In this document: positions 3-14,979 of the stretch, one piece after another
Layout: every line of letters starts with the position of its first letter
How positions within the stretch are numbered: position 1 is the first letter of the stretch
Source: an uncultured Verrucomicrobiae bacterium
GTDB taxonomy: Bacteria > Verrucomicrobiota > Verrucomicrobiia > Chthoniobacterales > Chthoniobacteraceae
Assembly: GCA_963769025.1 (NCBI GenBank)
Contig: CAVYKI010000003.1
Location: forward strand, 1 to 64,000
Direction: 5' to 3'
Length of the DNA stretch: 64,000 bases
Position numbers and translations under genes: made by a program
Notes under the pieces: model-generated
Database searches by the model: none
Told to the model about the DNA's origin: nothing
Seen by the model: the letters and a program-made list of their open reading frames with translations, nothing else

Positions 3-2102
3 GGGCAGGTGACCATCGGCGATGACGCCGCGCTGGGCACGGGCACGCTCACGATGAATGGCGGCACGCTGTTTGTCTCCGGCATCCGGACGCTGAACAA
101 CGCCCTGAACGTCACCGCGGACAGCACGTTCAGCGGCATCAGCAGCGACGACTTTCATTTCAACAGCAACAGCATCTCGGGCTCCTCCGGGGTCACGCTG
201 ACGCTGACCGGCGGAAGCGCCACGACGGTGCTGAACTTCTACGGCGCCGGATTCACGTTCAACAGCAACATCGTCCTCGACACGTTCACCCGCGTGCGGA
301 TGAAAAACAGCTCCGGCACGGACACCTTCACGGGCGTCATTTCCGGCAGTGGTGATGACCTTTCCATCAACACGGGCGGTTTCGAAGTCTCGCAAGCCGG
401 CGGGACCACGGTGCTGACGGGGACGAACACTTTCACGAGCCGGACGCTGATCGCGGCCGGCACGCTGATCATCCAGAATAGCGCCGCCCTCGGCAGCACG
501 GCCGCCGGCACGCAGGTGGACGCCGGAGCCGACCTTCGCATGCAGGGCAACATCAGCGTGGGAGCCGAGGCATTGAGCCTGGCGGGCACGGGCATCGCCA
601 GCTCCGGCGCATTGCGCAACGTCAGCGGGAGCAATTCCTGGGCGGGAGATGTGACGCTCGCGGCCGCTTCCAGTATCGCCTCGGACGCCGGGACGCTCAC
701 CATTTCCGGCGGCTTCAGCGGCCCCACCTTTGGCCTCACCGTGGGCGGCGCGGGCAATACGATCCTCTCCGGAGCCATCGGCACGACCACGGGCACATTC
801 ACCAAGACGGGCACCGGCCGGGTGACCCTTTCCGGCGCGAATACCTACACCGGCGCGACCACCGTGAGCGCGGGCAGACTCGTGGTCACCGGCAGCCTGA
901 CTTCCGCCGTTACCGTGGCATCTGGCGCGAGCCTCTCCGGCCAGGGCACGACCAGCTCCACACTCGCGCTGAATGGAGGTTCCACGATCGTCGGCGTCGC
1001 ACAGGTGGCGGGTTCCGGAAATGCCTTCCGCGCCGCCGGTGCGGTGACCGCTGGCGCATCCGTGCTTATCTCGGGTTCCGATGGCAGCGCCACAGTGGGT
1101 GCCGGCCATAAGATCGACGTGGTGGGGTACGGCACGACGCCGGGCACGGCGAATTTCAGCACGGCGAACTACCGCTCGGCGACGGTCTCGGACGACACGG
1201 TGAACAAGAAAATCACCCTCACCTACACCAACTCGGGCCGGACATGGAATTCCGCCTCGAGCACCTGGGACGTCGGCACCACGTCGGCATGGCAGGAAGG
1301 CGACTTCAAGTTCTTCCAAGGCGACGCGGTGACCTTCAACGACACCGGCACCGGCGGCGGCGGCGCACGCACCGTCACGCTGAATTCCGCGGTCACTCCC
1401 GGCGGCGTCACCTTCGGCAACTCCACCAGCACCTATACCGTCACCGGCTCCGGCTCCATCGGCGGCGCGGCCGCGCTGACCAAGTCCGGCACCGGAACCG
1501 TGAACCTCGCCACGGCCAACACTTTCGCCGGGAACACGACGGTCAACGCCGGCACGCTCTCGGCGAACGCCGACGGCGCGCTCGGCAGCACGGCCAAGAT
1601 CACCATCAACACCGGCGGCACCGTGCTGCTCGGCGTGAGCACCGCGGCGAACGACCGCATCGGCAACGCCGCGGAAATCGCGCTCAACGGCGGCACATTC
1701 CACACCGGCGGCTTCACCGAGACCGTCGGCAAGGTGACGCTCACCGCCAACTCCACGCTCGATTTTGGCGCCGGCACCAGCCGCCTCACCTTCGACGGCG
1801 CCAGCAGCCTCGGCAGTTCCACGCTCACGGTCCTCAATTGGACAGGCACCGCCTTCACCGCCGGCGGGACCGACCAGCTCATCTTTACCAATTCATCCTT
1901 CACCGCCGGGTCCGGCACCAGCCAGGTCCAGTTCAACATCGGCGGCACCTTTTACGGCGGCACCTTCATCAGCCTCGGAGGCACCAGCCTGGAGCTCGTC
2001 CCCGTCCCCGAGCCCGCCACCCTCTTCGGCGCCGGCGCCCTCGTGCTCGCCCTCGGCTGGCGCGAGCGCAGGCGCTTCGCACGGCTGGTGTCGAAGGCTT
2101 GA
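3..2102 (+). CDS. PEP-CTERM-sorted surface protein with autotransporter-associated beta-strand repeats (5' partial)
   Basis: Repeated LTKxGxGTLxLSGxNTYTGxTTVxxGxL motifs. C-terminus VPEPATLFGAGALVLALGWRERRR (PEP, TM helix, basic tail). Frame is open to the window edge. Confidence 0.9.
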   Translation, partial: GQVTIGDDAALGTGTLTMNGGTLFVSGIRTLNNALNVTADSTFSGISSDDFHFNSNSISGSSGVTLTLTGGSATTVLNFYGAGFTFNSNIVLDTFTRVRMKNSSGTDTFTGVISGSGDDLSINTGGFEVSQAGGTTVLTGTNTFTSRTLIAAGTLIIQNSAALGSTAAGTQVDAGADLRMQGNISVGAEALSLAGTGIASSGALRNVSGSNSWAGDVTLAAASSIASDAGTLTISGGFSGPTFGLTVGGAGNTILSGAIGTTTGTFTKTGTGRVTLSGANTYTGATTVSAGRLVVTGSLTSAVTVASGASLSGQGTTSSTLALNGGSTIVGVAQVAGSGNAFRAAGAVTAGASVLISGSDGSATVGAGHKIDVVGYGTTPGTANFSTANYRSATVSDDTVNKKITLTYTNSGRTWNSASSTWDVGTTSAWQEGDFKFFQGDAVTFNDTGTGGGGARTVTLNSAVTPGGVTFGNSTSTYTVTGSGSIGGAAALTKSGTGTVNLATANTFAGNTTVNAGTLSANADGALGSTAKITINTGGTVLLGVSTAANDRIGNAAEIALNGGTFHTGGFTETVGKVTLTANSTLDFGAGTSRLTFDGASSLGSSTLTVLNWTGTAFTAGGTDQLIFTNSSFTAGSGTSQVQFNIGGTFYGGTFISLGGTSLELVPVPEPATLFGAGALVLALGWRERRRFARLVSKA

Positions 2103-2201
2103 GGTCATCAGAGGCGGGTGGCCCGCAGTACCCCCTTAAAGCCCTATAGTGTCGAGATATACGACACCGACGTTGGCATCCCCGGTGCTCATGTTCCGTC
2201 C

Positions 2202-3350
2202 ATGCCCTCACTACCCCATCCCCGCTTTCACTTTGACCACACCGTCGATGCCCAATGGATCGCCATGGAAAAGCTGGTCACCCATCTCGAACAGGAGATT
2301 GGCGATTGGCGCAGCGAACTCGAACTCCGCGCCGGGCAGCGCATGGCGGGTCAATCCGCCGCCGCCCTCGTCCCGGCGGGCGCCGAGGCTCCCTGTGCCG
2401 ACCGGGTGATTTTGCAAATGCCCCTCCCCACGGTGGCCTCTCCGCGGCCTGTCGCCGGGCCGCTGGCTGAAGTCTTCCCCGCCGAGGTCGAAATCCCGGA
2501 CGCGGAGCCGGAAGCGGAAGCAGAACCGATTTTCGACGCGACGGAGGCCGAGACTTCCGCGGGGCGGGACGGAGAATTTCGCGAGGAAGGACTGCGGCTC
2601 CTGAAGCAGGCTGGCGGCCCCCTCGCGACAGCGAGCGACCTGATGATGGCCGGAGAAAATTTCCACCATGCCTACGCGGACGCCCGCGAAGGCGCGCTCA
2701 AAGCCAGCGACATCGCCAATTGCGGCATCACGTTGTGGTTTGCCGCACTGGCCTTCTTCCGCCTCGGCGCGCAGTTGAACCTCCGCGGCTGCAAATCCGG
2801 CGCTCCGGACGAACTCTTCCTCACCATGGCCCTCAGGCCCGCCGAATTTCCCGGTGGCGACGTGGGCAGCCGGATGCGGAGCGCATTGAATCCCGAGCAT
2901 ATCAATCAGCTCGTGCGACTGGTCGAACTCGCGATGGTCTGCTTCCGGAAAAGCGTGCAACTCGACCCAAAGGGCATCGGCTCCATGTGGCAGCTCATCC
3001 TCAATCGGGGCATCGGCAATTTCTCGGAATGCATCGCGCTCGCGAACACCGCCGCCACGGAAGCCGGACCCGCCACGGAAGCCTTTTTGAAAGGCATCCC
3101 GGCCTATCAGGCCGATTTCGCGCGCCTCATCTGCGCCCCTTGCAACGCGCACGTTCCCGAGAGCGACTGGCTGAACCGCACCATCCTCCATTCCATGGCC
3201 CCCATCTGCCAGCTCCTCGAAGCCGACGCCTCGCTGGCCCCGGTGAGGAACAATCACCCCCGGCTGCTCAGCAGCGCGGAAGGGATCACCCTCGCCACCT
3301 GCGCGACGGACCAGCGCGCCACCCGCGCCCGCCACGGAGCTGCCGCGTAA
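2202..3350 (+). CDS. Hypothetical protein with an acidic/Pro-rich linker and possible TPR-like helices
   Basis: Long ORF with normal-looking codon usage. AMVCFRKSVQLDPK resembles a TPR helix B. Start uncertain (2118-2265). Confidence 0.6.
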   Translation: MPSLPHPRFHFDHTVDAQWIAMEKLVTHLEQEIGDWRSELELRAGQRMAGQSAAALVPAGAEAPCADRVILQMPLPTVASPRPVAGPLAEVFPAEVEIPDAEPEAEAEPIFDATEAETSAGRDGEFREEGLRLLKQAGGPLATASDLMMAGENFHHAYADAREGALKASDIANCGITLWFAALAFFRLGAQLNLRGCKSGAPDELFLTMALRPAEFPGGDVGSRMRSALNPEHINQLVRLVELAMVCFRKSVQLDPKGIGSMWQLILNRGIGNFSECIALANTAATEAGPATEAFLKGIPAYQADFARLICAPCNAHVPESDWLNRTILHSMAPICQLLEADASLAPVRNNHPRLLSSAEGITLATCATDQRATRARHGAAA

Positions 3351-3487: not shown

Positions 3488-3493
3488 TAGGAT
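3488..3493 (+). promoter_or_regulatory. Possible -10 box (TAGGAT) for a leaderless transcript of the HTH gene
   Basis: TAGGAT ends 7 nt before ATG 3501. No Shine-Dalgarno sequence visible. Confidence 0.3.
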
Positions 3494-3500
3494 GCGGGGC

Positions 3501-3767
3501 ATGGCTTGGCACCATGGATGTCCCCCGGAGGATTACCCGCGCTGGATCAATGAACGCATCGGGGCGGAAGTGCGGGAGCGGCGGGAGGCGCTGGGCCTCA
3601 GTGCGTATGCGCTGGGCAGGGCGGCCGGGGTGAGCGACCAGACGATCCTGAACATCGAGCAGGGATTCAACCCGAACGGCTGCTGGACGGGGACGCTGGC
3701 GCGGATTTGCGTGAAATTCGGCACGACGCTGCCGGTACTGACGGGGGCGGCACAGGCGCGCCCGTGA
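3501..3767 (+). CDS. XRE/Cro-C1 family helix-turn-helix regulator
   Basis: IGAEVRERREALGLSAYALGRAAGVSDQTILNIEQG ... TLARICVKFG is a typical HTH_3 pattern. Confidence 0.85.
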   Translation: MAWHHGCPPEDYPRWINERIGAEVRERREALGLSAYALGRAAGVSDQTILNIEQGFNPNGCWTGTLARICVKFGTTLPVLTGAAQARP

Positions 3768-3851
3768 GCGGGCGGGTTAGCCAATTCCTATTGGCTACCG
3801 CACTTTCCGGGTTCTGTGCTGGTATCGCGGGCGTCCCTCACGACTCCTGCG

Positions 3852-4280
3852 ATGAAAGCCTTCCCAGCAAAGACCGCCTGTTTCCCGATGCCGGGAGGCC
3901 GCTTTTACCGCTCAAGTCGCGGTTTCGGGCCGAAAGTGGCCGTTTTCGCGGTCCCGATGCCGCCCCCGGCCGCGCCGGGGTGCTCCATGGGCGTCCCGGG
4001 GTGCCCATTCGCGGCGGCGGGGTGCCCCATCGCGGAGCCATGGACGCCGGCCTTGCCGCCGGGGTGCTCCATGGGCGCGGCGGGGTGCTCATTCCGGGGT
4101 CCGGGGGGACGCCCCGCGCCGGCGAGTGGACACCCCGGCTGTCCCAGTGGGGATCCCCGCCCGCGCATGGGGCACCCCGGCTTTCGGAATGGCCACCCCG
4201 CGCGCCGCACCCGGCACCCCGGGACGCAGGGTGCTGGCGCCGTAACCGGGAAATGGAGGCCGCGGACGCGGGAGCCATGA
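3852..4280 (+). CDS. Possible heptad-repeat ORF read through the 21-bp array (142 aa)
   Basis: Phe every 7 aa (positions 4, 11, 18, 25, 32), then PGC/AGC and HPG heptads. Stop overlaps the next ATG (ATGA 4277-4280). May be a by-product of the DNA repeat. Confidence 0.3.
   Translation: MKAFPAKTACFPMPGGRFYRSSRGFGPKVAVFAVPMPPPAAPGCSMGVPGCPFAAAGCPIAEPWTPALPPGCSMGAAGCSFRGPGGRPAPASGHPGCPSGDPRPRMGHPGFRNGHPARRTRHPGTQGAGAVTGKWRPRTREP
3858..4221. repeat. Degenerate 21-bp tandem array whose core reverses orientation at ~4109
   Basis: CGGGGTG at 3976, 3997, 4018, 4060, 4081 (variant at 4102). CACCCCG at 4131, 4173, 4194, 4215 (variants at 4110, ~4152). T-tracts at ~21-bp spacing over 3861-3946. Confidence 0.85.
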
Positions 4281-5090
4281 ACTGGGATTCCGGCACATGG
4301 GACTCCGGGACGTGGGACAGCGGCACCCCGGCCGGGCAGACCCCCTCCGCCTATTTTCAACGACAACCCAAAACCAAAACCAAAATGAAACGCACCAACT
4401 ACTACCCCAGCCGCATCGGAGACCAGGCCAACTGGCTCGATAACTTTTCCAACAAGCTGCCCATCCACGGCCCGACGCTCGGCGTGATCGCCGGGGACAT
4501 CACCGCCGGCGTGAACGACGCGAAGTGGGGCCACTATGTCCTGGGCACGTGGCTCACGAATGTGCGCGCCTTTGCCCCCTCGACCACGGATGCCGTGGAT
4601 GACGTGCTGACCGGCGAAGGCGGGAGCGCCATCGGTACTGCCCACCTTTGTCGCGCCTGCGCTGCCTGCGGGGGTGACGGCGGCGCTGCCCGGCGCGCTC
4701 ACGCGCATCTTTGCGCTCGTGGCCAGGATGAAGCTCTCGGGTGCCTATACCGACGCCATCGGCACGGACCTCGGCATCGTGGGCTCCGAGGACACCGGGT
4801 CGCAGACGGTGCCGAAATTCCTCATCGCAATCGAGCAGGGCGACGGGTGCCAGTGCGCGCGGCTGACCTTTTACAAATACGGCCACATGGGCGTGTACAT
4901 CGAAAGCCGCCGCGGAGCGTCTGCGCTGTTCGAGTTCCTCGCGATCGACACGGAGAGCCCCTACGAGGACAAGCGCCCGCTGCTGGTCGCCGGCCAGCCC
5001 GAGGTGCGCGAATACCGGATGCGCTTCTGGGACAAAGGCACGCCGAACGGCGACTGGACCGACGTGCAGAGGGTGACGGTCTCGCCGTGA
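4277..5090 (+). CDS. Hypothetical protein: (WDSGT)3 leader, helical middle, C-terminal Fn3-like beta-sandwich; apparent +1 frameshift near 4634
   Basis: MNWDSGTWDSGTWDSGT...MKRTNYYPSRIGDQANWLDNF joins VLPTFVAPALPAGVTAALPGALTRIF...EVREYRMRFWDKGTPNGDWTDVQRVTVSP if one base is removed at atcggtactg. Alternative start at 4385. Confidence 0.7.
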
Positions 5091-5096
5091 TTCCAG

Positions 5097-5196
5097 ACGG
5101 GGAGACCGGGGGACTTGGAGAAGAGGAGACTGCAATCCATTCCAAGCCCCCCATCTCCCAGTCTCCTTCTCTCCCAGTCTCCCAGTCTTTCTCCCA
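5097..5196. repeat. 8-bp-periodic imperfect inverted repeat (GGAGAC.. / TCTCCCAG)
   Basis: Purine-rich arm ggggagaccgggggacttggagaagaggagactg, then pyrimidine-rich arm tctcccagtctccttctctcccagtctcccagtctttctccca. Confidence 0.65.
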
Positions 5197-5781
5197 ATGC
5201 CCTTCGACCCCTCCCTCCCCGCCACCGGTTCGCCGGATTCCTCCGCCGAAATGCGGGGGCAGCTCAACGGACTGAAGGAACTCATCGACGCCGTGCAGGG
5301 CATCACCTCCGCGCAGGTGGATACGGTGGCCACCGCCGGACCCGGCGACCCCGCGGCCGTCTCGCTCGTGATCGTCGGGAATGTGATGCACCTGAGCTTT
5401 GTCATCCCGCGCGGGAATGACGGCGTGGCCGGCCCGCCGGGCCAGCAGGGGCCGGCCTTTGCGAATGCCGTGATCGACAGCGTGGGGACGCTGAATCCCG
5501 GGGAGAATGCGACGGTGTCGGTGTCGTTCGACGGGAGCAGCGTGCATTTCAGCTTTGGCATCCCGCGCGGTGCGACGGGCGAGCCGGGCACGCAAGGGCA
5601 GCCGGGCGAGGTGACGAACTCGGACCTGGCGAGTGCCATCAACGGAGTGCTCGCGCAGACCTCCAACACCTCGAATGGCGTGGCCTTGCTCGGCATGACG
5701 GTGAGCGACCCGCCGACGCAGGCGGAAGTGCAGGCGGTGGCCACCAAGCTCGACGAACTGATCACGGCGCTTCGCCGGTAG
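5197..5781 (+). CDS. Collagen-like (GXY) repeat protein resembling phage fibre proteins
   Basis: Two tandem units end in FxIPRG followed by GXY runs (GNDGVAGPPGQQGP, GATGEPGTQGQPGE). C-terminal helix PTQAEVQAVATKLDELITALRR. Confidence 0.75.
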   Translation: MPFDPSLPATGSPDSSAEMRGQLNGLKELIDAVQGITSAQVDTVATAGPGDPAAVSLVIVGNVMHLSFVIPRGNDGVAGPPGQQGPAFANAVIDSVGTLNPGENATVSVSFDGSSVHFSFGIPRGATGEPGTQGQPGEVTNSDLASAINGVLAQTSNTSNGVALLGMTVSDPPTQAEVQAVATKLDELITALRR

Positions 5782-5788
5782 GCGGAGC

Positions 5789-5928
5789 CCCTGGACTGCG
5801 GAGGCTCGCCTCCGCTTTCCGCTTCGAGGCTTGCCGAGAAGTGGGCGACCTCCGGGATCCCGGATGCCCCGCCGCGCTCGCCCTGGCTCGTCCACCACAA
5901 AGCGGAGGCGAGCCTCCGCAGTCCAGGG
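5789..5928. repeat. REP-like doublet: perfect 30-bp inverted repeat, each arm itself a hairpin
   Basis: ccctggactgcggaggctcgcctccgcttt (5789-5818) is the exact reverse complement of 5899-5928. Confidence 0.85.
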
Positions 5929-6036: not shown

Positions 6037-9000
6037 ATGTCTGCGCCCTGCCCATCTCGAAACCGGCTTGCCGGGGTGCTTCTTGCACTTCTGCTGCTGT
6101 GCGGAGGCCACAGGGCACAGGCGGCGACGATCACCTGGGACGGCGGGGGTACGAACGTCAAATGGGACACCCTTCTAAACTGGGACACTGACGCACTGCC
6201 CCTGACCACCGACACCGTGCAATTCGGCTCGGGATTTGCCTCCGGCACGGCCATCGATCTGAACGGAAACCGGACTGCGGACAGCCTGATCATCAGCACC
6301 ACGACCGGGATCAGCATTACCAACAACAACCTGACCCTCTCCACGGGGAACATCACGCGAAACGATGTCGCGGGCACGGAGGCCGACCAGACCATTTCCA
6401 GCAAAGTCGTCTTGGGAGCCAATGGGACCTGGAGCATCGCCGGGAGTGGAAGCCTCATTGTCAGCGGAGTGGTCAGCGGCTCGTTTTCGCTGACGAAGAC
6501 GGATGTCGGCACTCTGTTTCTCTCAGGCGTCAACACGTACACAGGGGGGACGGTGATCAATGCCGGCACGGTGGCCGTCAACAACATCTCCAGTCTCGGC
6601 AACACCTCCGGCGGCCTCACGATCAATGCCGGCACGCTGCAAGTCATCACCGGCTTCACCTCGACCCGGGTGATCACCCTGGGTGACGTTGCCAGCACGA
6701 TCCTCGTGGATCCGGCGCAAACCTACACGGTCTCCAGCGCCATCGGCGGCGCCGGAACCCTCAACAAGACCGGCACCGGAACGCTGACCCTCACCGGGAC
6801 CAACACCTACACCGGTGGGACGGTGATCAACGACGGTACCGTGGCGGTCAACAGCAGCGCCAGCCTTGGCAATACCTCCGGCGGCCTCACGATCAATGCC
6901 GGCACGCTGCAAGTCACCACGGGCTTCACCTCGACCCGAGTGATCACGCTGGGGGACGCCGCCAGCACCATCCTCGTCAACGCATCCCAAACCTACACCG
7001 TCTCCAGCGCCATCGGCGGCACCGGCACGCTCAATAAGACCGGCACCGGCACACTGACCCTCACCGGCACGAACACCTACACCGGCGGCACGGTGATCAA
7101 TGCCGGCACCGTGGCGGTCAACAGCAGCACCAGCCTCGGCAACACCTCCGGCGGCCTCACGATCAATGCGGGCACGCTGCAAGTCACCACGGGCTTCACC
7201 TCCACCCGTTTGATCACGCTGGGTGACGCCGCCAGCACGATTCAAGTCGATCCCTCGCAGACGTACTCGATGAGCGGCGCCATCGGTGGCACAGGCACCC
7301 TGAACAAGACCGGCACAGGCACTTTGAATCTTTCCGGCAACAACACTTTCTCCGGCGGCGTGACGTTGAGCACCGGCACCGTGGGCATCGGCCATAACGC
7401 CGCGCTGGGCACGGGAACGCTCACGCTCACCGGCGGCATCACCATCCAGGCCAGCGGCGGCGCACGGACAGTCAGCAACGCGGTGACCCTCGCGGGCAAC
7501 TTCTCGATCGGAGGCAGCAACGACCTTACCTTCGGCGGGGCCGCGACCCTGACCGGGAACCGTACGATCACCGTGGACAGCACGGGCACCACCACGTTTT
7601 CCGGGGCAATCGGCCAGAACGCCGCCGGGCGCAGTCTGACCAAGGCCGGCACCGGCACGCTCGTGCTTTCGGGTTCAAACTCCTATTCCGGCGCGACGAC
7701 GATCAACGCCGGGGTGGTGAACATCCGCAATGCCAATGGACTCGGCACGACCGCCGGGGGTGCCACCGTGGCCAGCGGCGCGGCGCTCGAACTGCAAGGC
7801 GGCATCGCCGTGGGCGCGCAGGCCCTCACGCTCAACGGCACCGGCATCGCCGGCGGCGGCGCCCTGCGCAATGTCAGCGGGGATAATTCGTGGGCGGGCA
7901 CCGTGACCTTGGGCTCTTCATTCACGATCAGCTCGGATGCCGGCACGTTGACCATCAGTGGCACTGTCAACACGGGCGGCAGCGCTGCCAACACGGTGAC
8001 CTACGGCGGCGCGGGCAACCATATTTCCAGCGGGGTAATCACCAATTCGGGCGGGGTGACGAAAATCGGGACTGGCACGCTCACGCTGACCGGGAGCACC
8101 GCCAACACCTACACGGGCGATACCGCAGTGAACGAAGGAATTCTGTTCCTGGACGTGAGCGCGATTAATGGGGCCATTGTGGACACGCTGACGATCGGCG
8201 ACGGCATCGGCGGGGAGAAGGCCGACGTGGTCCGCTATCTGCGCAACACCCAAATCAACAGCGGCGGCGGGACGGGGATCGTCTTGAAGAGTTCCGGCTG
8301 GCTGGACCTGAACGACTATTCCGACACCGTCAAGTTCACCAGTCTGGACGGGGGTTGGATCACGACCGGCACCGGCACGCTGACGCTTGCGAGCAACCTC
8401 ACTGTCCTGGGAACTGCCGGCATGACGACGTACATCACCGGTAAACTCAACCTGGGTGGCAATCGCACGTTTACCGTCAATGACGGAGCGGCCGACGTGG
8501 ACATGCTGGTTTCGGCCGTGGTCTCGGGCGCCAACTCGCTCAACAAATCAGGCGCGGGCACCCTGGTGCTTTCCGGCGCGAATACGTATAGCGGTCAGTT
8601 GACCCTCACCTCAGGGACCCTCGTGTTGGGTCACGATTCGGCCACGGGCACGGGAATCTTCAAAATCGGCGCAGGAACCATTCTGGCAACCGGCGGAGCG
8701 CGCACCATCAGCAATACGCTGGATTTGGACCAGAATTTCATTCTTGGCGGCTCGCTGGACCTCACTTTTTCCGGAAACGCCGTCCTCGGTCGCGACATCA
8801 TCATCACGACGACCAATACCGGTACCAGCACGTTCTCCGGGGCAATCAGCGGTGGGTTGAAACTCTACAAAGACGGGCCGGGCATGCTCATTCTTTCCGG
8901 GGCCAACAGTCAGGCCGAAACCTACGTCAACGCTGGCGTCCTCAATATTCGGAGCGTCGGCGCCTTGGGCAGCAACAAGAAAACCGTTGTCTACAGCGGC

Positions 9001-10170
9001 GGGGCACTCGAACTCCAAGGAGGGCTCGCCATGGGTGCGGAAACGCTGGAGCTTTACGGCAGCGGCATCAGCGGCGGCGGCGCATTCCGCAATGTGAGCG
9101 GCAACAACTCGTGGGCTGGCAACGTCACGCTCAAGGCCGCCGCCACCATCGCCAGCGATTCCGGCACCCTGACGATCGGCGGCAACATCAACACCGGCGT
9201 CTTTGCCGGGACTTTCTCCGGCGCAGGCGATGTCACCGCCAGCGGGGTGGTCAGCGGCACCGGCAGCCTGACCAAGAGCGGCGCGGGCATCCTGACCTTG
9301 TCGGGGGTGAACACCTTCAGCGGCGGCGCGACGATCAATGGCGGCACCGTCGCCGTGAACAGCGCCAGCAGCCTCGGCGCGGCCGGCGTGGCGGCCACCA
9401 TCAACTCCGGCACGCTGCGGGCCACCGAGACCTTCACCACGTCGCGCAATCTCACCCTCGGCTCAGCCGGCAGCACCATCGAGGCGGACGCCACCAAGAC
9501 GCTCACCGCGACCGGCGTGCTGAGCGGCTCGGGCGGCCTGACCAAGACGGGCGCTGGCACGCTCACGCTCAGTGGCGCGGCGGCGAACACCTTCAACGGA
9601 GCCACAACCGTCAGCGCAGGCACCCTCTCGGCGAATGCCGACGGCGCATTGGGCAGCACGACAAAGGTCACCATCAACACCGGCGGCACGGTGCTGATGG
9701 GCGTGAGCACTCCCGGCAGCAACCGCATCAGCGACACCGCGGAGATTGCGCTCGCCGGCGGCACGTTCAACACCGGCGGCTTCAGCGAGACCGTCGGGAA
9801 GATGACGCTCAGCGGCAATTCCACGTTCGATTTTGGCGCAGGGGCCAGCCAGATGACCTTCGATGGCGCCAGCAGCCTCGGCAGTTCCACGCTCACGGTG
9901 CTGAACTGGACCGGCACTCCCCTCACCTCTGGCGGAACGGACCGGCTGATTTTCAACAACTCGTCGTTCACCGCCGGAACCGGCACCAGCCAAGTGCAGT
10001 TCAACATCGGCGGCAGCTTTTACAGCGGCACCTTCATCAGCCTCGGCGGCACCAGCCTGGAGCTTGTCCCCGTCCCCGAGCCCGCCACCCTCTTCGGCGC
10101 CGGCGCCCTCGTGCTCGCCATCGCATGGCGCGAGCGCAGGCTCTTCGCCCGGCTGTTGCAGAGGGTCTGA
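6037..10170 (+). CDS. PEP-CTERM surface protein with autotransporter-associated beta-strand repeats
   Basis: Signal peptide (..AQA-ATITWDGGG), many beta-strand repeats, C-terminal VPEPATLFGAGALVLAIAWRERR. Confidence 0.92.
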   Translation: MSAPCPSRNRLAGVLLALLLLCGGHRAQAATITWDGGGTNVKWDTLLNWDTDALPLTTDTVQFGSGFASGTAIDLNGNRTADSLIISTTTGISITNNNLTLSTGNITRNDVAGTEADQTISSKVVLGANGTWSIAGSGSLIVSGVVSGSFSLTKTDVGTLFLSGVNTYTGGTVINAGTVAVNNISSLGNTSGGLTINAGTLQVITGFTSTRVITLGDVASTILVDPAQTYTVSSAIGGAGTLNKTGTGTLTLTGTNTYTGGTVINDGTVAVNSSASLGNTSGGLTINAGTLQVTTGFTSTRVITLGDAASTILVNASQTYTVSSAIGGTGTLNKTGTGTLTLTGTNTYTGGTVINAGTVAVNSSTSLGNTSGGLTINAGTLQVTTGFTSTRLITLGDAASTIQVDPSQTYSMSGAIGGTGTLNKTGTGTLNLSGNNTFSGGVTLSTGTVGIGHNAALGTGTLTLTGGITIQASGGARTVSNAVTLAGNFSIGGSNDLTFGGAATLTGNRTITVDSTGTTTFSGAIGQNAAGRSLTKAGTGTLVLSGSNSYSGATTINAGVVNIRNANGLGTTAGGATVASGAALELQGGIAVGAQALTLNGTGIAGGGALRNVSGDNSWAGTVTLGSSFTISSDAGTLTISGTVNTGGSAANTVTYGGAGNHISSGVITNSGGVTKIGTGTLTLTGSTANTYTGDTAVNEGILFLDVSAINGAIVDTLTIGDGIGGEKADVVRYLRNTQINSGGGTGIVLKSSGWLDLNDYSDTVKFTSLDGGWITTGTGTLTLASNLTVLGTAGMTTYITGKLNLGGNRTFTVNDGAADVDMLVSAVVSGANSLNKSGAGTLVLSGANTYSGQLTLTSGTLVLGHDSATGTGIFKIGAGTILATGGARTISNTLDLDQNFILGGSLDLTFSGNAVLGRDIIITTTNTGTSTFSGAISGGLKLYKDGPGMLILSGANSQAETYVNAGVLNIRSVGALGSNKKTVVYSGGALELQGGLAMGAETLELYGSGISGGGAFRNVSGNNSWAGNVTLKAAATIASDSGTLTIGGNINTGVFAGTFSGAGDVTASGVVSGTGSLTKSGAGILTLSGVNTFSGGATINGGTVAVNSASSLGAAGVAATINSGTLRATETFTTSRNLTLGSAGSTIEADATKTLTATGVLSGSGGLTKTGAGTLTLSGAAANTFNGATTVSAGTLSANADGALGSTTKVTINTGGTVLMGVSTPGSNRISDTAEIALAGGTFNTGGFSETVGKMTLSGNSTFDFGAGASQMTFDGASSLGSSTLTVLNWTGTPLTSGGTDRLIFNNSSFTAGTGTSQVQFNIGGSFYSGTFISLGGTSLELVPVPEPATLFGAGALVLAIAWRERRLFARLLQRV
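6526..7335 (+). repeat. Three near-identical 270-bp intragenic tandem repeats
   Basis: aacacctccggcggcctcacgatcaatgc recurs at 6601, 6871 (one mismatch) and 7141. Confidence 0.9.
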
Positions 10171-10370: not shown

Positions 10371-13300
10371 ATGAACGCGGCTGACGGCGTTTTTCACCGC
10401 CTCGCCCCGCGCTCATGGAGGCGGGCGAGGCAGCGATCGATGGCATTCGGGATTCTGGTGCTTTCGCTCGTCGCCGCGCCAGTCGCCCCGGCGACGGATC
10501 GGTTTTGGACGGGGGCCGCGGGCACCGACTGGGGCACCAATGGGAACTGGGACACCGGCTCACCGTCGGCGGACGACGTCGGAGTTTTCAACAGCACGTT
10601 CACCAACCAGCCGAGTCTCGGCAATAACAAGAGTGCCGGCGGCGTGTGGATGACCGACGGCATCGGCCAGAACGTGAGCGTTTCCGGAACCTTCCAGCTA
10701 TCGTTGAGCGGCACCTCGATCAACGGGACCGCGGGCCTCGGAATCCTCGTGGATAACGCCAACGCCTACACGCTTTCGTTCAATGGTCCCACCATCAAGG
10801 TCGCCGGGGACCAGGCTTGGCGGAACAATTCCGGCAACCTTCTCACGATCGGCGGCGCAGGTGTGGACATCAATGGCAAGGCGCTCACGATCGACGGCAC
10901 CGGAAACACGCTGGTGACCGCCGTCCTGAGCAATTCCGGTGCGTTCACCAAGGCCGGCACCGGCACGCTCACACTGAGCGGCACCAACACCTACACCGGC
11001 ACGACCACGGTAAGCGCGGGAGTCCTGAACATTCAAAACGCAGGTGCGCTCGGCGTTGCCGCCGCGGGCACGACCGTGGGCAGCGGGGCGACCTTGCAAC
11101 TGCAGGGAGGAATCACCGTGGGTGCCGAGGCGCTGAACATCACCGGCACCGGCGCGGGCGGCCAGACCGGCGCGCTCGTGAACGTGAGCGGCACGAACAA
11201 CTACGGAGGGCTGCTGACGCTGGCTGGCGCGACGACGCTATCCTCCGACAGCGGCACGCTGAACCTCACCAACGCCGGCACGATCACCGGCGCGACTTTC
11301 GGGCTGACGCTGGCCGGGGCCGGCAATGGAACCATCTCCGGCATCATCGGCACGACCAGCGGCACCCTCACGAAGGCCGGCGCGGGAACGTGGACAATTT
11401 CCGCGGCGAACACCTACACGGGCCTTACCACCGTGAACGCCGGAACACTGCGGTATGGCGCGAGCAACGTCATCAGTTCCGGGGCGGTCACCGTCAATGG
11501 CGCGACCGCGAACCTGGATCTTGTCGCCAACCAGACCGACACCGTCGGCACGGTGACGCTGGCCGGAGGCGGCAGCATCACCGGCACGGGCACGTCGGCA
11601 CTCACAAGCACCGGCACGTTTGAAATGCAGAGCGGATCGGCCAGCGCGATCCTCACCGGCACGGGCATCGTCCTGAACAAGACGACCACCGGGACCGTCA
11701 CGCTTTCCGGGGCGAATGGTTACACCGGCGCGACCGCCATCAGCGCAGGCATCCTGAACATTCAAAACGGCACGGGCTTGGGGACGACGGCGGCAGGCAC
11801 GACCGTGAGCAGCGGAGCGACCTTGCAACTGCAGGGCGGAATCACCGTGGGTGCCGAAGCGCTGAACATCAACGGCAGCGGAGCGGGCGGCCAGACCGGC
11901 GCGCTCGTGAACGTGGGCGGCACGAACAACTACGGAGGCCTGATCACGCTGGCGGGTGCGACCATGGTTTCCTCCGACAGCGGCACGCTGAACCTCACCA
12001 ACGCCGGCACCATCTCCGGCGCGACTTTCGGGCTGACGCTGGCTGGCGCGGGCAATGGAACCGTCTCAGGCATCATCGGCACGACGAGCGGCACCCTCAC
12101 GAAGACCGGCGCGGGGACGTGGACACTTTCCGTGGCAAATACCTATACCGGCGCGACGACGGTTTCTGGGGGCATCCTCGCGGTCGGTGTGAATGACGCA
12201 TTGGGCACCGCCGCGAGCGGCACGACCGTGAACAGCGGCGGCACGCTGCGCCTGCAGGCCGGCCTCAATTACACCACGGCGGAGGCATTGGCGATCCACG
12301 GCACCGGCTCCGGGGGCGTCGGCGCGCTGACCACCTCGGGCGCGGGCACGACGACGTTTGCCGGGCAGGTCACGGTGGCCACGCATGCGCTCATCAGCTC
12401 CGGCGGCGGCACGCTGAATCTGAATGGCGGCGTGGTGAAAAACGGCACGACTGCGACCTTCACCGGCGGCGGCATCATCCACATCAACACGGTCGGGATC
12501 AGCGGCAGCAGCGCGAATTCCGATCTGGTCGTGGACGGCACCACGCTGGTGCTCAATGTCGCCAACTCCTACAACGGCCCGACGACCGTGCTGAACAGCG
12601 GCGTGCTGCAACTCGGCGCATCGAATGTGTTGCCCACGTCCCCGCAGACGGCCCTCACGCTCAATTCCAGCGGCGTCTTTGATCTGGCGTCCTTCAACGA
12701 CTCCGTGGCCTCGCTCGCCGGCGAGGCGACCGGCTTGGTCCGGAACAGCACGGCGAGCACCACCAGCACGCTGACGGTCAATCCCGCCAGCGGCTCGACG
12801 ACCTTTGCCGGAACCATCGCCGGCACGGGCGGCGGCAACGGCGACATCACGCTGATCAAGACCGGCGCGGGGACACTTTCACTCTCCGGAACGAACACGT
12901 ACTCCGGCACGACCACCGTCAACGCGGGCATCCTGCAGACGGCGGGCACCGGCGCGTTCAACGGCACGGCGGGCTTGCTCATCCAGACCGGCGGTGCGGT
13001 GCAGAACACCTCGGGCAACCACTACGGCGCGGGCTTCTATTCCGGCTCCAGCCGCACGGCCACGGTGACCGGCAGCGGCTCGCAATGGACGAGCACCACC
13101 GCGCTCTACGTCGGCGGCACGGGCACCGGGAACCAGCTCGTGGTCAGCAGCGGTGGCGGAGTCGTCACCGCAGGCGCGGGGCTGGGCTTTTCCGCGGGCG
13201 GTAACGGAAATACAGCGCTCATCACGGGCACCGGCTCGCTTTGGACGAACACCGGCTCATTTTACGTCGGCATCAGCGGGTCCACGAATTCGCTGACCAT

Positions 13301-14979
13301 CTCCAACGGAGGACAGACTTTCAAACAGCGGCACGTCGCACATCGGCTTTCAAAGTGTCGCCAGCGGCAACACGGCGCTGGTGGATGGCACCGGCTCGCT
13401 GTGGAGCATGGGGCTCGACGTATTTGTCGGCAATGCGGGCGGCGGCAGCCAGCTCACCGTTTCCAATGGCGGCCAGGTCACCAACCGCGACGGCTGGATC
13501 GGTGCCGGGTCATTGAGCGTGGGTAACACCGTCACCGTCACCGGCACCGGTTCGCTCTGGACGAACAGCCGCGACATTCTCGTGGGCTCCTCCGGCACGA
13601 ACAACCAACTGACGATCAGCAGCGGCGGCTCCGTCTCTGCCGCCGGAACATTGTACGTCGGTCAGAATGCCGGTTCGGGCAACGTGCTGACCGTGACGAA
13701 CGGCACGCTGACGGTGACCAACGGCGGCGGCACCGGCGTGATGGACGTCCGCCGCGGCGACGTCATTTTCAATAGCGGAACCATCACCGCCGACTCGCTG
13801 CTCGTGAATACCGGGGCGACCGGCACGTTCACTTTCAATGGCGGCACGCTGACCACCGGCGCCACCACCGTGGCGAACGGCTCGGCCTTTGCCGTGGGCA
13901 ATGGCACGTCCGGCGCGGTCTTCAACGTCGGCGGCTCCGGCGCGCACAGTTTCGCGAACGGACTGACCGTCAGCAACAACGCGCGCGCGGTGCTGACGAA
14001 CGGCAACGTCTCCGCGGCACCGGGCGTCGCCGTGAATTCCGGCGGCGCGGTCGAATTGCAAAACAACATTTCCGTGTCAGCCGCGCTGATGCTGAACGGC
14101 ACGGGCATTTCCGGCGGCGGCGCGTTGCGCAACATCAGCGGGAACAACACGTGGAGCGGCGCGACCACACTCGGCTCCGCGGGCACCATCGCCTCCGATG
14201 CCGGCACGCTCACGCACAGCGGCACGCTGGCGAACGGCGGCTTCACTGCGACATACACCGGCGCGGGAAACGTCACGGCAACTGGCGTCATCAGCGGCAG
14301 CGGCGGCGTGGCCAAGACCGGAGCCGGCACGTTCACCCTCGACGGCGCCTCGGCCAACACCTTCACCGGAAACACCACCGTGAGCGGCGGCACGCTCGCC
14401 GCAAACGCCGACGGCGCGCTCGGCAGCACGGCAATGGTCACCATCAACACTGGCGGCACGGTGCTGATGGGGGTGAGCACGGCCGGCAGCAATCGCATCG
14501 GCAACGCCACGGAGATCGCGCTCGCCGGAGGCACGTTCAACACCGGCGGCTTCAGCGAGACCGTCGGGAAGATGACGCTCAGCGCAAACTCGACATTCGA
14601 TTTCGGCGCAGGCACGAGCCATTTCACCTTCGACGGTGCCAGCAGCCTCGGCAGTTCCACGCTCACGGTGCTCAACTGGACGGGCGTCAAAAACCAGAGC
14701 GGCGGGACGGACCAGTTGATCTTCACCAACTCGTCGTTCACCGCCGGGAGCACCACCAGCCAGGTCCAGTTCAATATCGGCGGCACCTTTTACGGCGGCA
14801 CCTTCATCAGCCTCGGCGGCACGAGTCTGGAACTGGTCCCCGTCCCCGAACCGGCCACCATCTTCGGCGCGAGCCTTCTCGTGATCGCAATCGGCTGGCG
14901 CGAGCGCCGGCGCCTCTCACCGCTGCTTCGGAAAGTCGCCGGCAGCCCTGCCCCGGGGGCTTCAGCGATCCGGGACTGA
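10371..14979 (+). CDS. PEP-CTERM surface protein with autotransporter-associated and T5SS/PEP-CTERM-associated repeats; apparent +1 frameshift near 13320
   Basis: ORFs 10371..13526 and 13381..14979 join (GGQT-SNSGTSHIGFQSVASGNTALVDGTGSLW) if one base is removed at cagactttcaaac. C-terminal VPEPATIFGASLLVIAIGWRERRR. Start may be 10440. Confidence 0.85.
10970..12150 (+). repeat. Intragenic duplication of ~450 bp with a 729-bp offset
   Basis: ccttgcaactgcaggg.ggaatcaccgtgggtgccga at 11092 and 11821. Confidence 0.8.

What the first reader, a model, noticed from the sequence alone, without database searches (positions are those of the whole stretch)
3501..5928. Candidate undescribed cassette: XRE HTH, mirror 21-bp array, (WDSGT)3/Fn3-like protein, collagen fibre-like protein
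Seen: co-oriented elements packed into ~2.4 kb between two tandem PEP-CTERM paralogues and closed by a perfect 30-bp REP-like inverted repeat. Neither structural-looking protein has an obvious signal peptide, and no integrase, transposase or phage core gene is adjacent. Established: XRE proteins bind repeated operators, and GXY repeats form trimers. Inference: a self-contained regulated module in which the array is a protein-loading site or structured RNA and the two proteins form a filament or fibre. I recognise no named system with this layout.
Basis: partly seen in the sequence, partly recalled or inferred. Interest (0 to 1): 0.8.

Follow-up and report, generated by a model that had tools for sequence, protein, structure and literature searches.

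The report
Repeat-lattice cassette with matching protein code
A gene cassette found at many different sites in Verrucomicrobia genomes carries a row of DNA motifs spaced two helical turns apart whose sequence changes together with two amino acids of the neighbouring protein, which therefore likely coats its own repeats and likely carries a phage-like fibre, offering a testable partner for the unexplained 21-base repeats of bacteria.

Summary
Confirmed and extended. HTH, 21-bp array, helical/Fn3 gene and fibre gene recur in this order at unrelated sites in Verrucomicrobia, often several per genome. 63 of 64 loci have the 21/42 period.

1. The array lies inside an open leader ORF (3852-4280) whose stop overlaps the Fn3 start. 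It is stop-free in 53 of 55 loci but neutral as protein (dN/dS 1.02 versus 0.11).
2. The HTH helix tracks a separate palindrome (3778-3797), not the array.
3. The array motif tracks two residues in the Fn3 protein's MKRxxYYP arm (TN 15/15, QD 14/14, QT/QV 18/18). Independent events are few, and QN is mixed.
4. The Trp leader and the fibre gene co-occur (49 both, 17 neither, 0 fibre alone).

Best model: the Fn3 protein coats its own double-stranded lattice, tethers trimeric fibres and throttles its own expression. Binding, purpose and mobility route are untested. The 30-bp repeat is a dispersed REP-like family, not a terminus, and the frameshift is probably an assembly error. Nine paper searches found no description. 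This scan noted array-plus-helix/Fn3 gene pairs on other DNA before.

The parts
3488..3493 (+). -10-like hexamer 7 nt before the HTH start codon; a leaderless transcript is inferred
   Evidence: sequence; no full sigma-70 consensus found, so inference only
3501..3767 (+). XRE-family HTH protein (recognition helix DQTILN class)
   Evidence: PF13560 E 2e-8; HTH found in 49 of 58 loci with >1 kb upstream, window included
3778..3797 (.). 8-4-8 palindrome, likely operator of the HTH
   Evidence: co-varies with the recognition helix: DQTILN with CCAA-N6-TTGG 9/9, RDTISR with GTCC-N8-GGAC 13/13, REY/RQY with GTCA-N8-TGAC 8/8
3815..3825 (+). conserved promoter-like motif; the leader ATG lies at a fixed distance from it
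   Evidence: ATG at +31 from the motif core in 41 loci
3852..4280 (+). open leader ORF (142 codons) spanning the array; its stop overlaps the next start (ATGA)
   Evidence: frame stop-free in 53 of 55 loci; 38 of 41 coupled; dN/dS 1.02
3851..4240 (.). 21-bp lattice: 12-bp quasi-dyad plus 9 variable bases; strong units GGGGTG (3977-4093) and mirror CACCC (4124-4219)
4277..4384 (+). Trp-repeat leader plus basic linker; disordered in the homolog model; likely fibre-binding tag
   Evidence: pLDDT <50; co-occurrence with the fibre gene; only part shared with another partner family (hhalign E 3e-5)
4385..4408 (+). arm MKRTNYYP; TN (4394-4399) tracks the array motif
4277..5090 (+). partner gene: Trp leader, four-helix-bundle-like domain, Fn3 domain; one extra base near 4635 in this assembly
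   Evidence: 458 homologs; models; Fn3 Z 11.1; helical domain best Z 7.6, generic; indel
5095..5188 (.). 8-nt-repeat hairpin of a separate repeat family; passenger
   Evidence: same family flanks a four-helix-bundle gene in the C13 copy
5197..5781 (+). fibre-like protein: conserved N- and C-terminal helical segments, optional beta repeats and short GXY runs; trimer inferred
   Evidence: PHROGs tail protein E 5e-6 and virion structural protein E 0.005; phage tail fibre 7z47_D E 0.016; alignment
5789..5928 (.). REP-like 30-bp inverted repeat; genome-specific passenger enriched beside these cassettes
   Evidence: 24 elements in the genome; 6 of 7 fibre loci have one within 3.5 kb versus 2.3% by chance; 1 of 80 related loci

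Best explanation
This is a multi-copy cassette found at many unrelated sites, in which the helical/Fn3 protein likely binds its own 21-bp lattice as double-stranded DNA through its N-terminal arm, likely tethers the trimeric fibre through its tryptophan leader, and would thereby throttle its own expression. Steps: (1) Shown: conserved order and period, an open neutral leader, and three co-variation rules (HTH helix with palindrome, arm dipeptide with array motif, Trp leader with fibre gene). (2) Inferred: the HTH controls the array promoter from its own operator. (3) Inferred: ribosomes must cross the transcribed array and restart at the ATGA overlap, which is why the frame stays open while the peptide drifts. 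(4) Inferred: one protein unit sits on each 12-bp quasi-dyad, every two helical turns, on one face of the DNA; the coat blocks further transcription. (5) Inferred, weakest: the fibre-decorated nucleoprotein serves the cassette's own spread. No recombinase is encoded, so movement would need help in trans.
For: Period 21/42 is the top lag in 63 of 64 loci. Dyad centres fall on a 10.5-nt ladder from the leader ATG in 37 of 39 leaders. Other partner families use periods of 22, 41 and 44 with no open leader, which fits helical phase rather than codons. Leader: 2 stops in its frame against 63-169 in each other frame over 55 loci; dN/dS 1.02 against 0.11 in 9 disjoint pairs, and leader dS (0.05-0.23) at or below Fn3 dS (0.15-0.42). 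Arm: the top column by mutual information, 1.17 against 0.65 next. TN goes with CACCCC 15/15, QD with GCCCCC 14/14, and QT/QV with the GGTA/GGGA/GGGT-type half-sites 18/18. Array similarity is 0.64-0.78 for the same dipeptide and 0.03-0.15 for different ones in all bands >=70% identity; this holds when leader and downstream identity are controlled. Metagenome loci of the near clade: QD 9 of 11, QT 1 of 1, QV 3 of 3. Trp leader and fibre gene: 49 both, 17 neither, 2 leader only, 0 fibre only of 68; 15/6/2/0 of 23. All 7 fibre genes of this genome have a 21/22/42 array within 2.6 kb upstream. 54 upstream flanks form 49 clusters and 69 downstream flanks form 62.
Against: No binding or expression data. 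Phylogenetically independent contrasts are few: 1, 2 and 2 pairs on well-supported branches, never in the opposite direction, but none can reach significance. QN goes with three motif classes (3, 3 and 1 of 7). The code weakens in distant clades, where QD loci L218, L225, L226, L227, L230 and L233 show other top motifs. Some metagenome loci appear to duplicate genome loci, so that test is not fully held out. Arm and array are only about 100-150 nt apart, so block recombination cannot be excluded. The helical domain resembles no known DNA-binding fold. Orphan copies of the same array and promoter lie before an aldehyde dehydrogenase gene (C9, C11), one paralog lacks an array (C6), and one locus (L075) lacks the period. 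No exact empty-site junction was found.
Confidence: 0.55

Rival explanations
1. The lattice acts as RNA: the partner protein coats its own mRNA leader, blocks the ribosome that must cross it (autogenous translational control), and may package the transcript for RNA-based spread.
For: The array is downstream of the promoter-like motif and inside the coupled leader. It folds well (z -3.6). Cassette ends lie close to the HTH start and the fibre stop, as for copies of a transcript.
Against: No G-U excess on the sense strand (156 observed vs 151 expected; A-C 179 vs 170). The best pairing register is barely better than registers shifted by 21. The antisense strand folds as well as the sense strand. 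Purely direct arrays exist. Helical-only families carry the array downstream of the gene. No Rfam match at a gathering score.
Confidence: 0.2
2. The array is a self-homogenising minisatellite with no protein partner. The correlations come from linkage and block recombination, and the frame stays open only to keep the next gene translated.
For: Array type follows the Fn3 tree (5 changes, minimum 4). Few independent contrasts. Orphan arrays exist.
Against: The intervening Trp-leader sequence is closer to the array yet predicts it far worse than the dipeptide does. TN needs 4 and QD 6 changes on the tree, and the motif follows each time. Degenerate mirror arrays keep their phase from the ATG. Leader dS is not above gene dS.
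Confidence: 0.1
3. It is a host-domesticated adhesin or decoy module built from phage fibre parts and released by lysis. The array only tunes expression, and the many sites reflect ordinary gene shuffling.
For: Fibre segments match phage tail and virion families weakly. Fn3 domains are common on phage and cell surfaces (established knowledge). The window lies among surface PEP-CTERM genes.
Against: No relatives in IMG/VR, INPHARED or PLSDB. Patchy, multi-copy distribution (4 of 301 phylum genomes; up to 7 matches in one genome). It does not explain the arm-array rule.
Confidence: 0.1
4. The array is the repeated operator of the XRE protein.
For: The HTH lies directly upstream in 49 of 58 loci, and the units are quasi-palindromic.
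Against: One helix class (DQTILN) accompanies at least four array classes, and one array class has at least four helix classes. Mutual information is 0.59 bits with the array against 1.83 with the separate palindrome, over 45 loci (a few helix labels were mis-parsed).
Confidence: 0.04

Closest known systems
Bacterial tandem repeats of constant 20-21 nt length and variable sequence (Subirana and Messeguer, PMC8161180; passages read)
   Same: Constant two-turn period, sequence unrelated between families, several families per genome. The authors propose an unknown protein that polymerises on the DNA.
   Different: There they are described as generally non-coding and no partner gene is named in the passages read. 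Here the array sits in a fixed cassette, inside an open coupled leader, next to a protein whose residues track the motif.
Plasmid iteron-Rep arrays and centromere-adaptor pairs (parC-ParR, tubC-TubR, sopC-SopB; recalled)
   Same: Helically phased repeat array beside the gene of its likely binder; autoregulation; an adaptor tail that recruits a second protein.
   Different: No winged-helix or ribbon-helix-helix family hit, no NTPase or Rep gene, chromosomal multi-copy location, and no hit in PLSDB.
XRE controller (C) proteins and their palindromic boxes (recalled)
   Same: Small XRE protein with a co-varying palindrome just upstream of a promoter-like motif.
   Different: No restriction-modification genes in the cassette, and the operator lies downstream of the HTH gene.
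BrickBuilt MITE of Porphyromonas gingivalis (PMC4596501; passages read)
   Same: Dispersed element with internal repeats of about two turns (23 nt) and promoter activity at its ends.
   Different: BrickBuilt is a non-coding element with terminal repeats. This unit encodes three proteins and has no conserved terminal repeat.
Phage head and tail fibres with Fn3/Ig decoration proteins
   Same: Fibre repeats and C-terminal segment match phage virion families weakly; Fn3 fold.
   Different: No phage core genes are in the cassette and no relatives were found in viral collections.

Membership tests
Constant-length 20-21 nt bacterial tandem repeats | constant unit length with sequence that differs between families | tested here: met
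   63 of 64 loci, at least eight motif classes
Constant-length 20-21 nt bacterial tandem repeats | generally not in a reading frame | tested here: not met
   open coupled leader in 53 of 55 loci; the peptide is neutral
Iteron-Rep replicon | repeats phased at about 21-22 bp | tested here: met
Iteron-Rep replicon | winged-helix Rep initiator encoded beside the array | tested here: inconclusive
   no Pfam, NCBIfam or PHROG family for the partner; fold searches give only generic helix bundles
Iteron-Rep replicon | plasmid or phage location | tested here: not met
   no match in PLSDB, INPHARED or IMG/VR; copies on megabase contigs
Centromere-adaptor-NTPase partition system | ParA, ParM or TubZ NTPase gene in the unit | tested here: not met
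   the unit holds only HTH, leader, partner and fibre, and its neighbours differ from site to site
Centromere-adaptor-NTPase partition system | adaptor binds the array | not testable with these tools
   only co-variation
MITE / insertion sequence | conserved terminal inverted repeats | tested here: not met
   ends differ between loci; this inverted-repeat family is in 1 of 80 loci
MITE / insertion sequence | target-site duplication | tested here: inconclusive
   six relatives lack the cassette after the same gene, but their downstream genes differ, so there is no junction to read
MITE / insertion sequence | transposase or integrase in or beside the unit | tested here: not met
   Y1-transposase-like hit in 1 of 188 loci; one integron-integrase query matched only its own locus; this genome's recombinases lie far from the window
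CRISPR / TIGR-type guide arrays | cas or Tas gene, and spacers long enough to guide | tested here: not met
   variable part is 9 nt; no Rfam match at a gathering score; no such family hit
Controller-protein switch of restriction-modification systems | XRE protein with a co-varying palindrome by a promoter | tested here: met
Controller-protein switch of restriction-modification systems | linked restriction and methylase genes | tested here: not met
   cassette content
Integron gene cassette | attC site at the 3' end | not tested
   no attC model was run; by reading, the inverted repeat lacks the attC end motifs (motifs recalled)

The most novel reading that the evidence does not exclude
A minimal selfish element of a new class. 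A leader-gated operon makes a coat protein that reads its own 21-bp lattice through a two-residue code, so several specificity types can coexist in one genome. The coat assembles a fibre-tipped nucleoprotein particle that carries the cassette to new sites or cells without a transposase, capsid or polymerase of its own. Related array-plus-helical-gene modules would then explain many of the unexplained 20-21-nt repeats across bacteria.
Probability: 0.25. Interest if true: 0.95.

Novelty: categorically new. Interest (0 to 1): 0.82.

Why it matters
Constant-length 20-21-nt repeats with variable sequence occur in many bacterial groups, and their function is described as unknown; a polymerising protein was proposed but not named in the passages read (PMC8161180). 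This cassette names a candidate protein and the two residues that should set its specificity, so a single swap experiment tests the idea. It also shows a 120-170-codon leader kept open while its peptide drifts neutrally. If binding is confirmed, it gives a small programmable DNA-coating scaffold with a display domain and a fibre tag. It also points to an unrecognised way for gene cassettes to spread without a transposase.

Tried and rejected
Family libraries:
- The partner protein has no hit in Pfam, PHROGs (best E 0.04), NCBIfam or PDB sequences.
- The ESM Atlas returned only unnamed clusters.
- A recalled link to DUF6261/HagB found no support: no PF19775 match in this genome, and no relevant paper.

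Folds and complexes:
- The helical domain gave no fold above background (best Z 7.6; nothing in BFVD). This excludes no family.
- No profile similarity between the family-A helical domain and the helical-only family.
- The complex predictor was not available, so Trp-leader/fibre binding and oligomer state were not modelled.

Expression and RNA:
- No RNA holder was listed, so expression is untested.
- The sigma-70 scan found no consensus promoter.
- A unique RNA hairpin was rejected as unfavoured.
- A functional leader peptide was rejected (dN/dS 1.02).

Mobility:
- The inverted repeat as a terminus was rejected.
- RAYT or integrase as a regular companion was rejected.
- Empty-site searches: the window's left gene has one relative in 60 genomes, L006 had no genus relatives, and the L004 relatives lack synteny downstream.
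- Viral, phage and plasmid collections gave nothing.

Statistics: the independent-pair sign tests could not reach significance.
Full report
OBSERVATION. The period is not chance. It is the top lag in the window and in 63 of 64 related loci with enough upstream sequence. In 600 random windows of this genome, 60 had a top lag of 21 or 42 and only 2 reached 0.52. Homologs read IVLP at the break, and two near-identical public contigs lack the extra base at 4635. Other genes of this assembly also carry indels, so an assembly error is likely, though a recent mutation is not excluded. The left neighbour is an unknown gene, not the PEP-CTERM paralog.

DISTRIBUTION. The partner protein has 458 homologs at E <= 0.001 and 1321 representatives at 50% clustering. 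The genome scan found 121 relatives and kept the best 80, nearly all labelled Verrucomicrobiota, often several per genome (up to 7 matches in one genome). Only 4 of 301 genomes of the phylum match. The fibre gene is in 25 of 121 relatives, including 17 of 29 of the same genus. An HTH precedes the array in 49 of 58 loci with over 1 kb upstream. Flanks differ almost everywhere: 54 upstream flanks form 49 clusters and 69 downstream flanks form 62. The six closest homologs of the gene upstream of L004 have no cassette after it, but their downstream genes differ, so no junction could be read. In 8 close pairs, similarity ends 0-59 nt after the fibre stop. Nothing was found in viral contigs, phages or plasmids.

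A WIDER SET. In this genome all 7 fibre genes have a 21-, 22- or 42-nt array within 2.6 kb upstream, and 6 of 7 have a matched Trp-leader gene. Their partner genes belong to different families. In relatives, at least six helical or helical-plus-Fn3 families precede the fibre gene, most with a recognisable aromatic W/Y-D leader. Their arrays lie upstream (Fn3 forms) or downstream (helical-only forms), with periods of 21, 22, 41, 42 or 44. About a quarter of the fetched regions showed no such partner in my automatic read. Family A shares only the Trp leader with one of these families and nothing detectable with the helical-only family.

THE LEADER ORF. A conserved promoter-like motif is followed at a fixed distance by an ATG. 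The frame runs through the array and through inserted hairpin repeats, and it stops on the ATGA of the partner gene (window 3852-4280). Over the 420 nt upstream of 55 Trp-leader genes, that frame holds 2 stops, against 63-169 in each of the other five frames. 38 of 41 motif-anchored leaders are coupled, and 23 of 38 have a length of 2 modulo 7. The peptide is not under selection: dN/dS is 1.02 over 9 disjoint pairs against 0.11 for the partner gene, substitutions are spread over all codon positions, and leader dS is at or below gene dS. The constraint is therefore on the nucleotides and on an open frame. Distant clades without the Trp leader mostly keep a 21/42 array but have no open leader.

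THE LATTICE. Each unit is a 12-bp quasi-dyad plus 9 variable bases. The best-pairing phase starts one base before the leader ATG (0.39 against 0.23-0.35 for other phases). Dyad centres lie on a 10.5-nt ladder from the ATG in 37 of 39 leaders. There is no sense-strand G-U excess, shifted registers pair nearly as well, and the antisense strand folds as well as the sense strand. Together with periods of 22, 41 and 44 elsewhere, this favours helically phased sites on double-stranded DNA over a unique RNA structure. That step is inference.

THREE CO-VARIATION RULES. (1) The HTH recognition helix tracks the palindrome upstream of the promoter motif: 9/9, 13/13 and 8/8 for three classes. It does not track the array (1.83 against 0.59 bits, 45 loci, a few labels mis-parsed). 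(2) The array motif tracks the two variable residues of the arm M-K/R-R-x-x-Y-Y/F-P. This is the top column. TN goes with CACCCC 15/15, QD with GCCCCC 14/14 and QT/QV with their half-site class 18/18, among 64 loci; one of 65 loci was dropped for lacking a period. The effect persists across identity bands and after controlling for the sequence on either side. Against it: QN is mixed; independent contrasts number only 1, 2 and 2 on well-supported branches, and although none runs the other way none is significant; in 39 metagenome loci the near clade fits (QD 9 of 11, QT 1 of 1, QV 3 of 3) but distant clades fit poorly, and some of those loci appear to repeat earlier ones. (3) The Trp leader and the fibre gene occur together: 49 both, 17 neither, 2 leader only and 0 fibre only among 68 loci, and 15/6/2/0 among 23. 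Kin are not independent in these counts, but the same pairing recurs in unrelated partner families.

PROTEINS. The model of homolog P0002 (pLDDT 79.8) has a disordered leader, a helical domain and a beta sandwich. The sandwich is Fn3 (Z 11.1, rmsd 2.4, 84 residues). The helical domain alone (pLDDT 91.4) matches only generic four-helix bundles. The fibre has conserved N- and C-terminal helical segments. Its beta repeats and C-terminus match phage tail and virion families weakly, and its GXY runs are dispensable. A trimer is inferred from these features, not modelled, because the complex predictor was not available. Neither protein shows a hydrophobic signal stretch on reading; no predictor was run.

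PASSENGERS. The 30-bp inverted repeat belongs to a family of 24 elements in this genome. It lies near 6 of 7 fibre loci (2.3% by chance) but in only 1 of 80 related loci. 31 of 52 related cassettes contain some perfect inverted repeat of 12 bp or more, against 2 of 40 flanking controls. Hairpin repeats gather in these cassettes but do not define their ends.

MECHANISM. Most likely the HTH sets the promoter, ribosomes cross the leader and restart on the partner gene, and the partner coats the lattice through its arm. The coat would then damp further expression and display Fn3 domains and tethered fibres (confidence 0.55). RNA-level action (0.2), pure linkage (0.1), a domesticated adhesin or decoy (0.1) and an XRE operator array (0.04) are the rivals. 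The purpose and the route of movement are unknown; selfish spread is the best guess from the patchy, multi-copy, many-site pattern.

LITERATURE AND EARLIER NOTES. Nine searches found no description of this cassette; the library lacks most subscription journals. I read passages of PMC8161180 (abstract, introduction, sections 3.2, 3.3, 4.1, 4.2), PMC6749651 (no mention of Verrucomicrobia) and PMC4596501. I opened no supplements, and the repeat catalogues in them could list such arrays. The earlier survey cited as reference 3 in PMC8161180 was not read. Iteron, centromere, controller-protein and attC features are recalled. This scan's unchecked notes already record 21-bp arrays in this genome and array-plus-helix/Fn3 gene pairs in other bacteria; the few lines shown do not mention the open neutral leader or the three co-variation rules.

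VERDICT. A real, conserved, apparently undescribed cassette that fails the tested membership criteria of its nearest known systems. Interest 0.82.

Noticed in passing
G000:C9:1277175-1277610 and C11:21378-21803: Orphan copies of the window's promoter-like motif and mirror array sit directly before an aldehyde dehydrogenase gene, with no HTH, partner or fibre. The two regions are about 97% identical over the gene and may be strain duplicates.
   Followed up: partly
G000:C13:19200-23300 (minus): A paralog cassette has a near-perfect direct 21-nt array of unrelated sequence, and a four-helix-bundle-like gene with 8-nt repeat arms inserted in reverse between partner and fibre.
   Followed up: partly
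L137:980-1969 and upstream of the array in L141: An integron-integrase-like gene (L137), or fragments of one (L141), lies just upstream of 22/44-nt arrays in place of the HTH.
   Followed up: partly
G000:C9:555357-555686: The genome's only Y1 transposase match (PF01797) lies about 2 kb upstream of one cassette, on the same strand.
   Followed up: partly
G000:C13:27848-36524 and C10:512847-521540: Clusters of six or seven copies of the 30-bp inverted-repeat element punctuate what looks like a polysaccharide-type operon; some appear to be read in frame at gene starts.
   Followed up: no
G000:C9:148042, C10:155187, C12:519539: 21/42-nt arrays beside further unnamed helical gene families, with no fibre gene nearby.
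   Followed up: partly
L018 and L049; L005, L020 and L026: The same upstream site holds cassettes of different array types, which suggests replacement by recombination between copies.
   Followed up: no
window 2118-3350: Unknown 382-410-aa gene with no Pfam hit and a single relative among 60 related genomes.
   Followed up: partly
window 9-2102, 6037-10170, 10371-14979: Tandem PEP-CTERM / passenger-associated-repeat genes; the third appears split by a frameshift near 13500.
   Followed up: no
L053, G000:C9:551344-553335: In some copies the array-spanning leader is in frame with the partner gene instead of overlapping its start.
   Followed up: no
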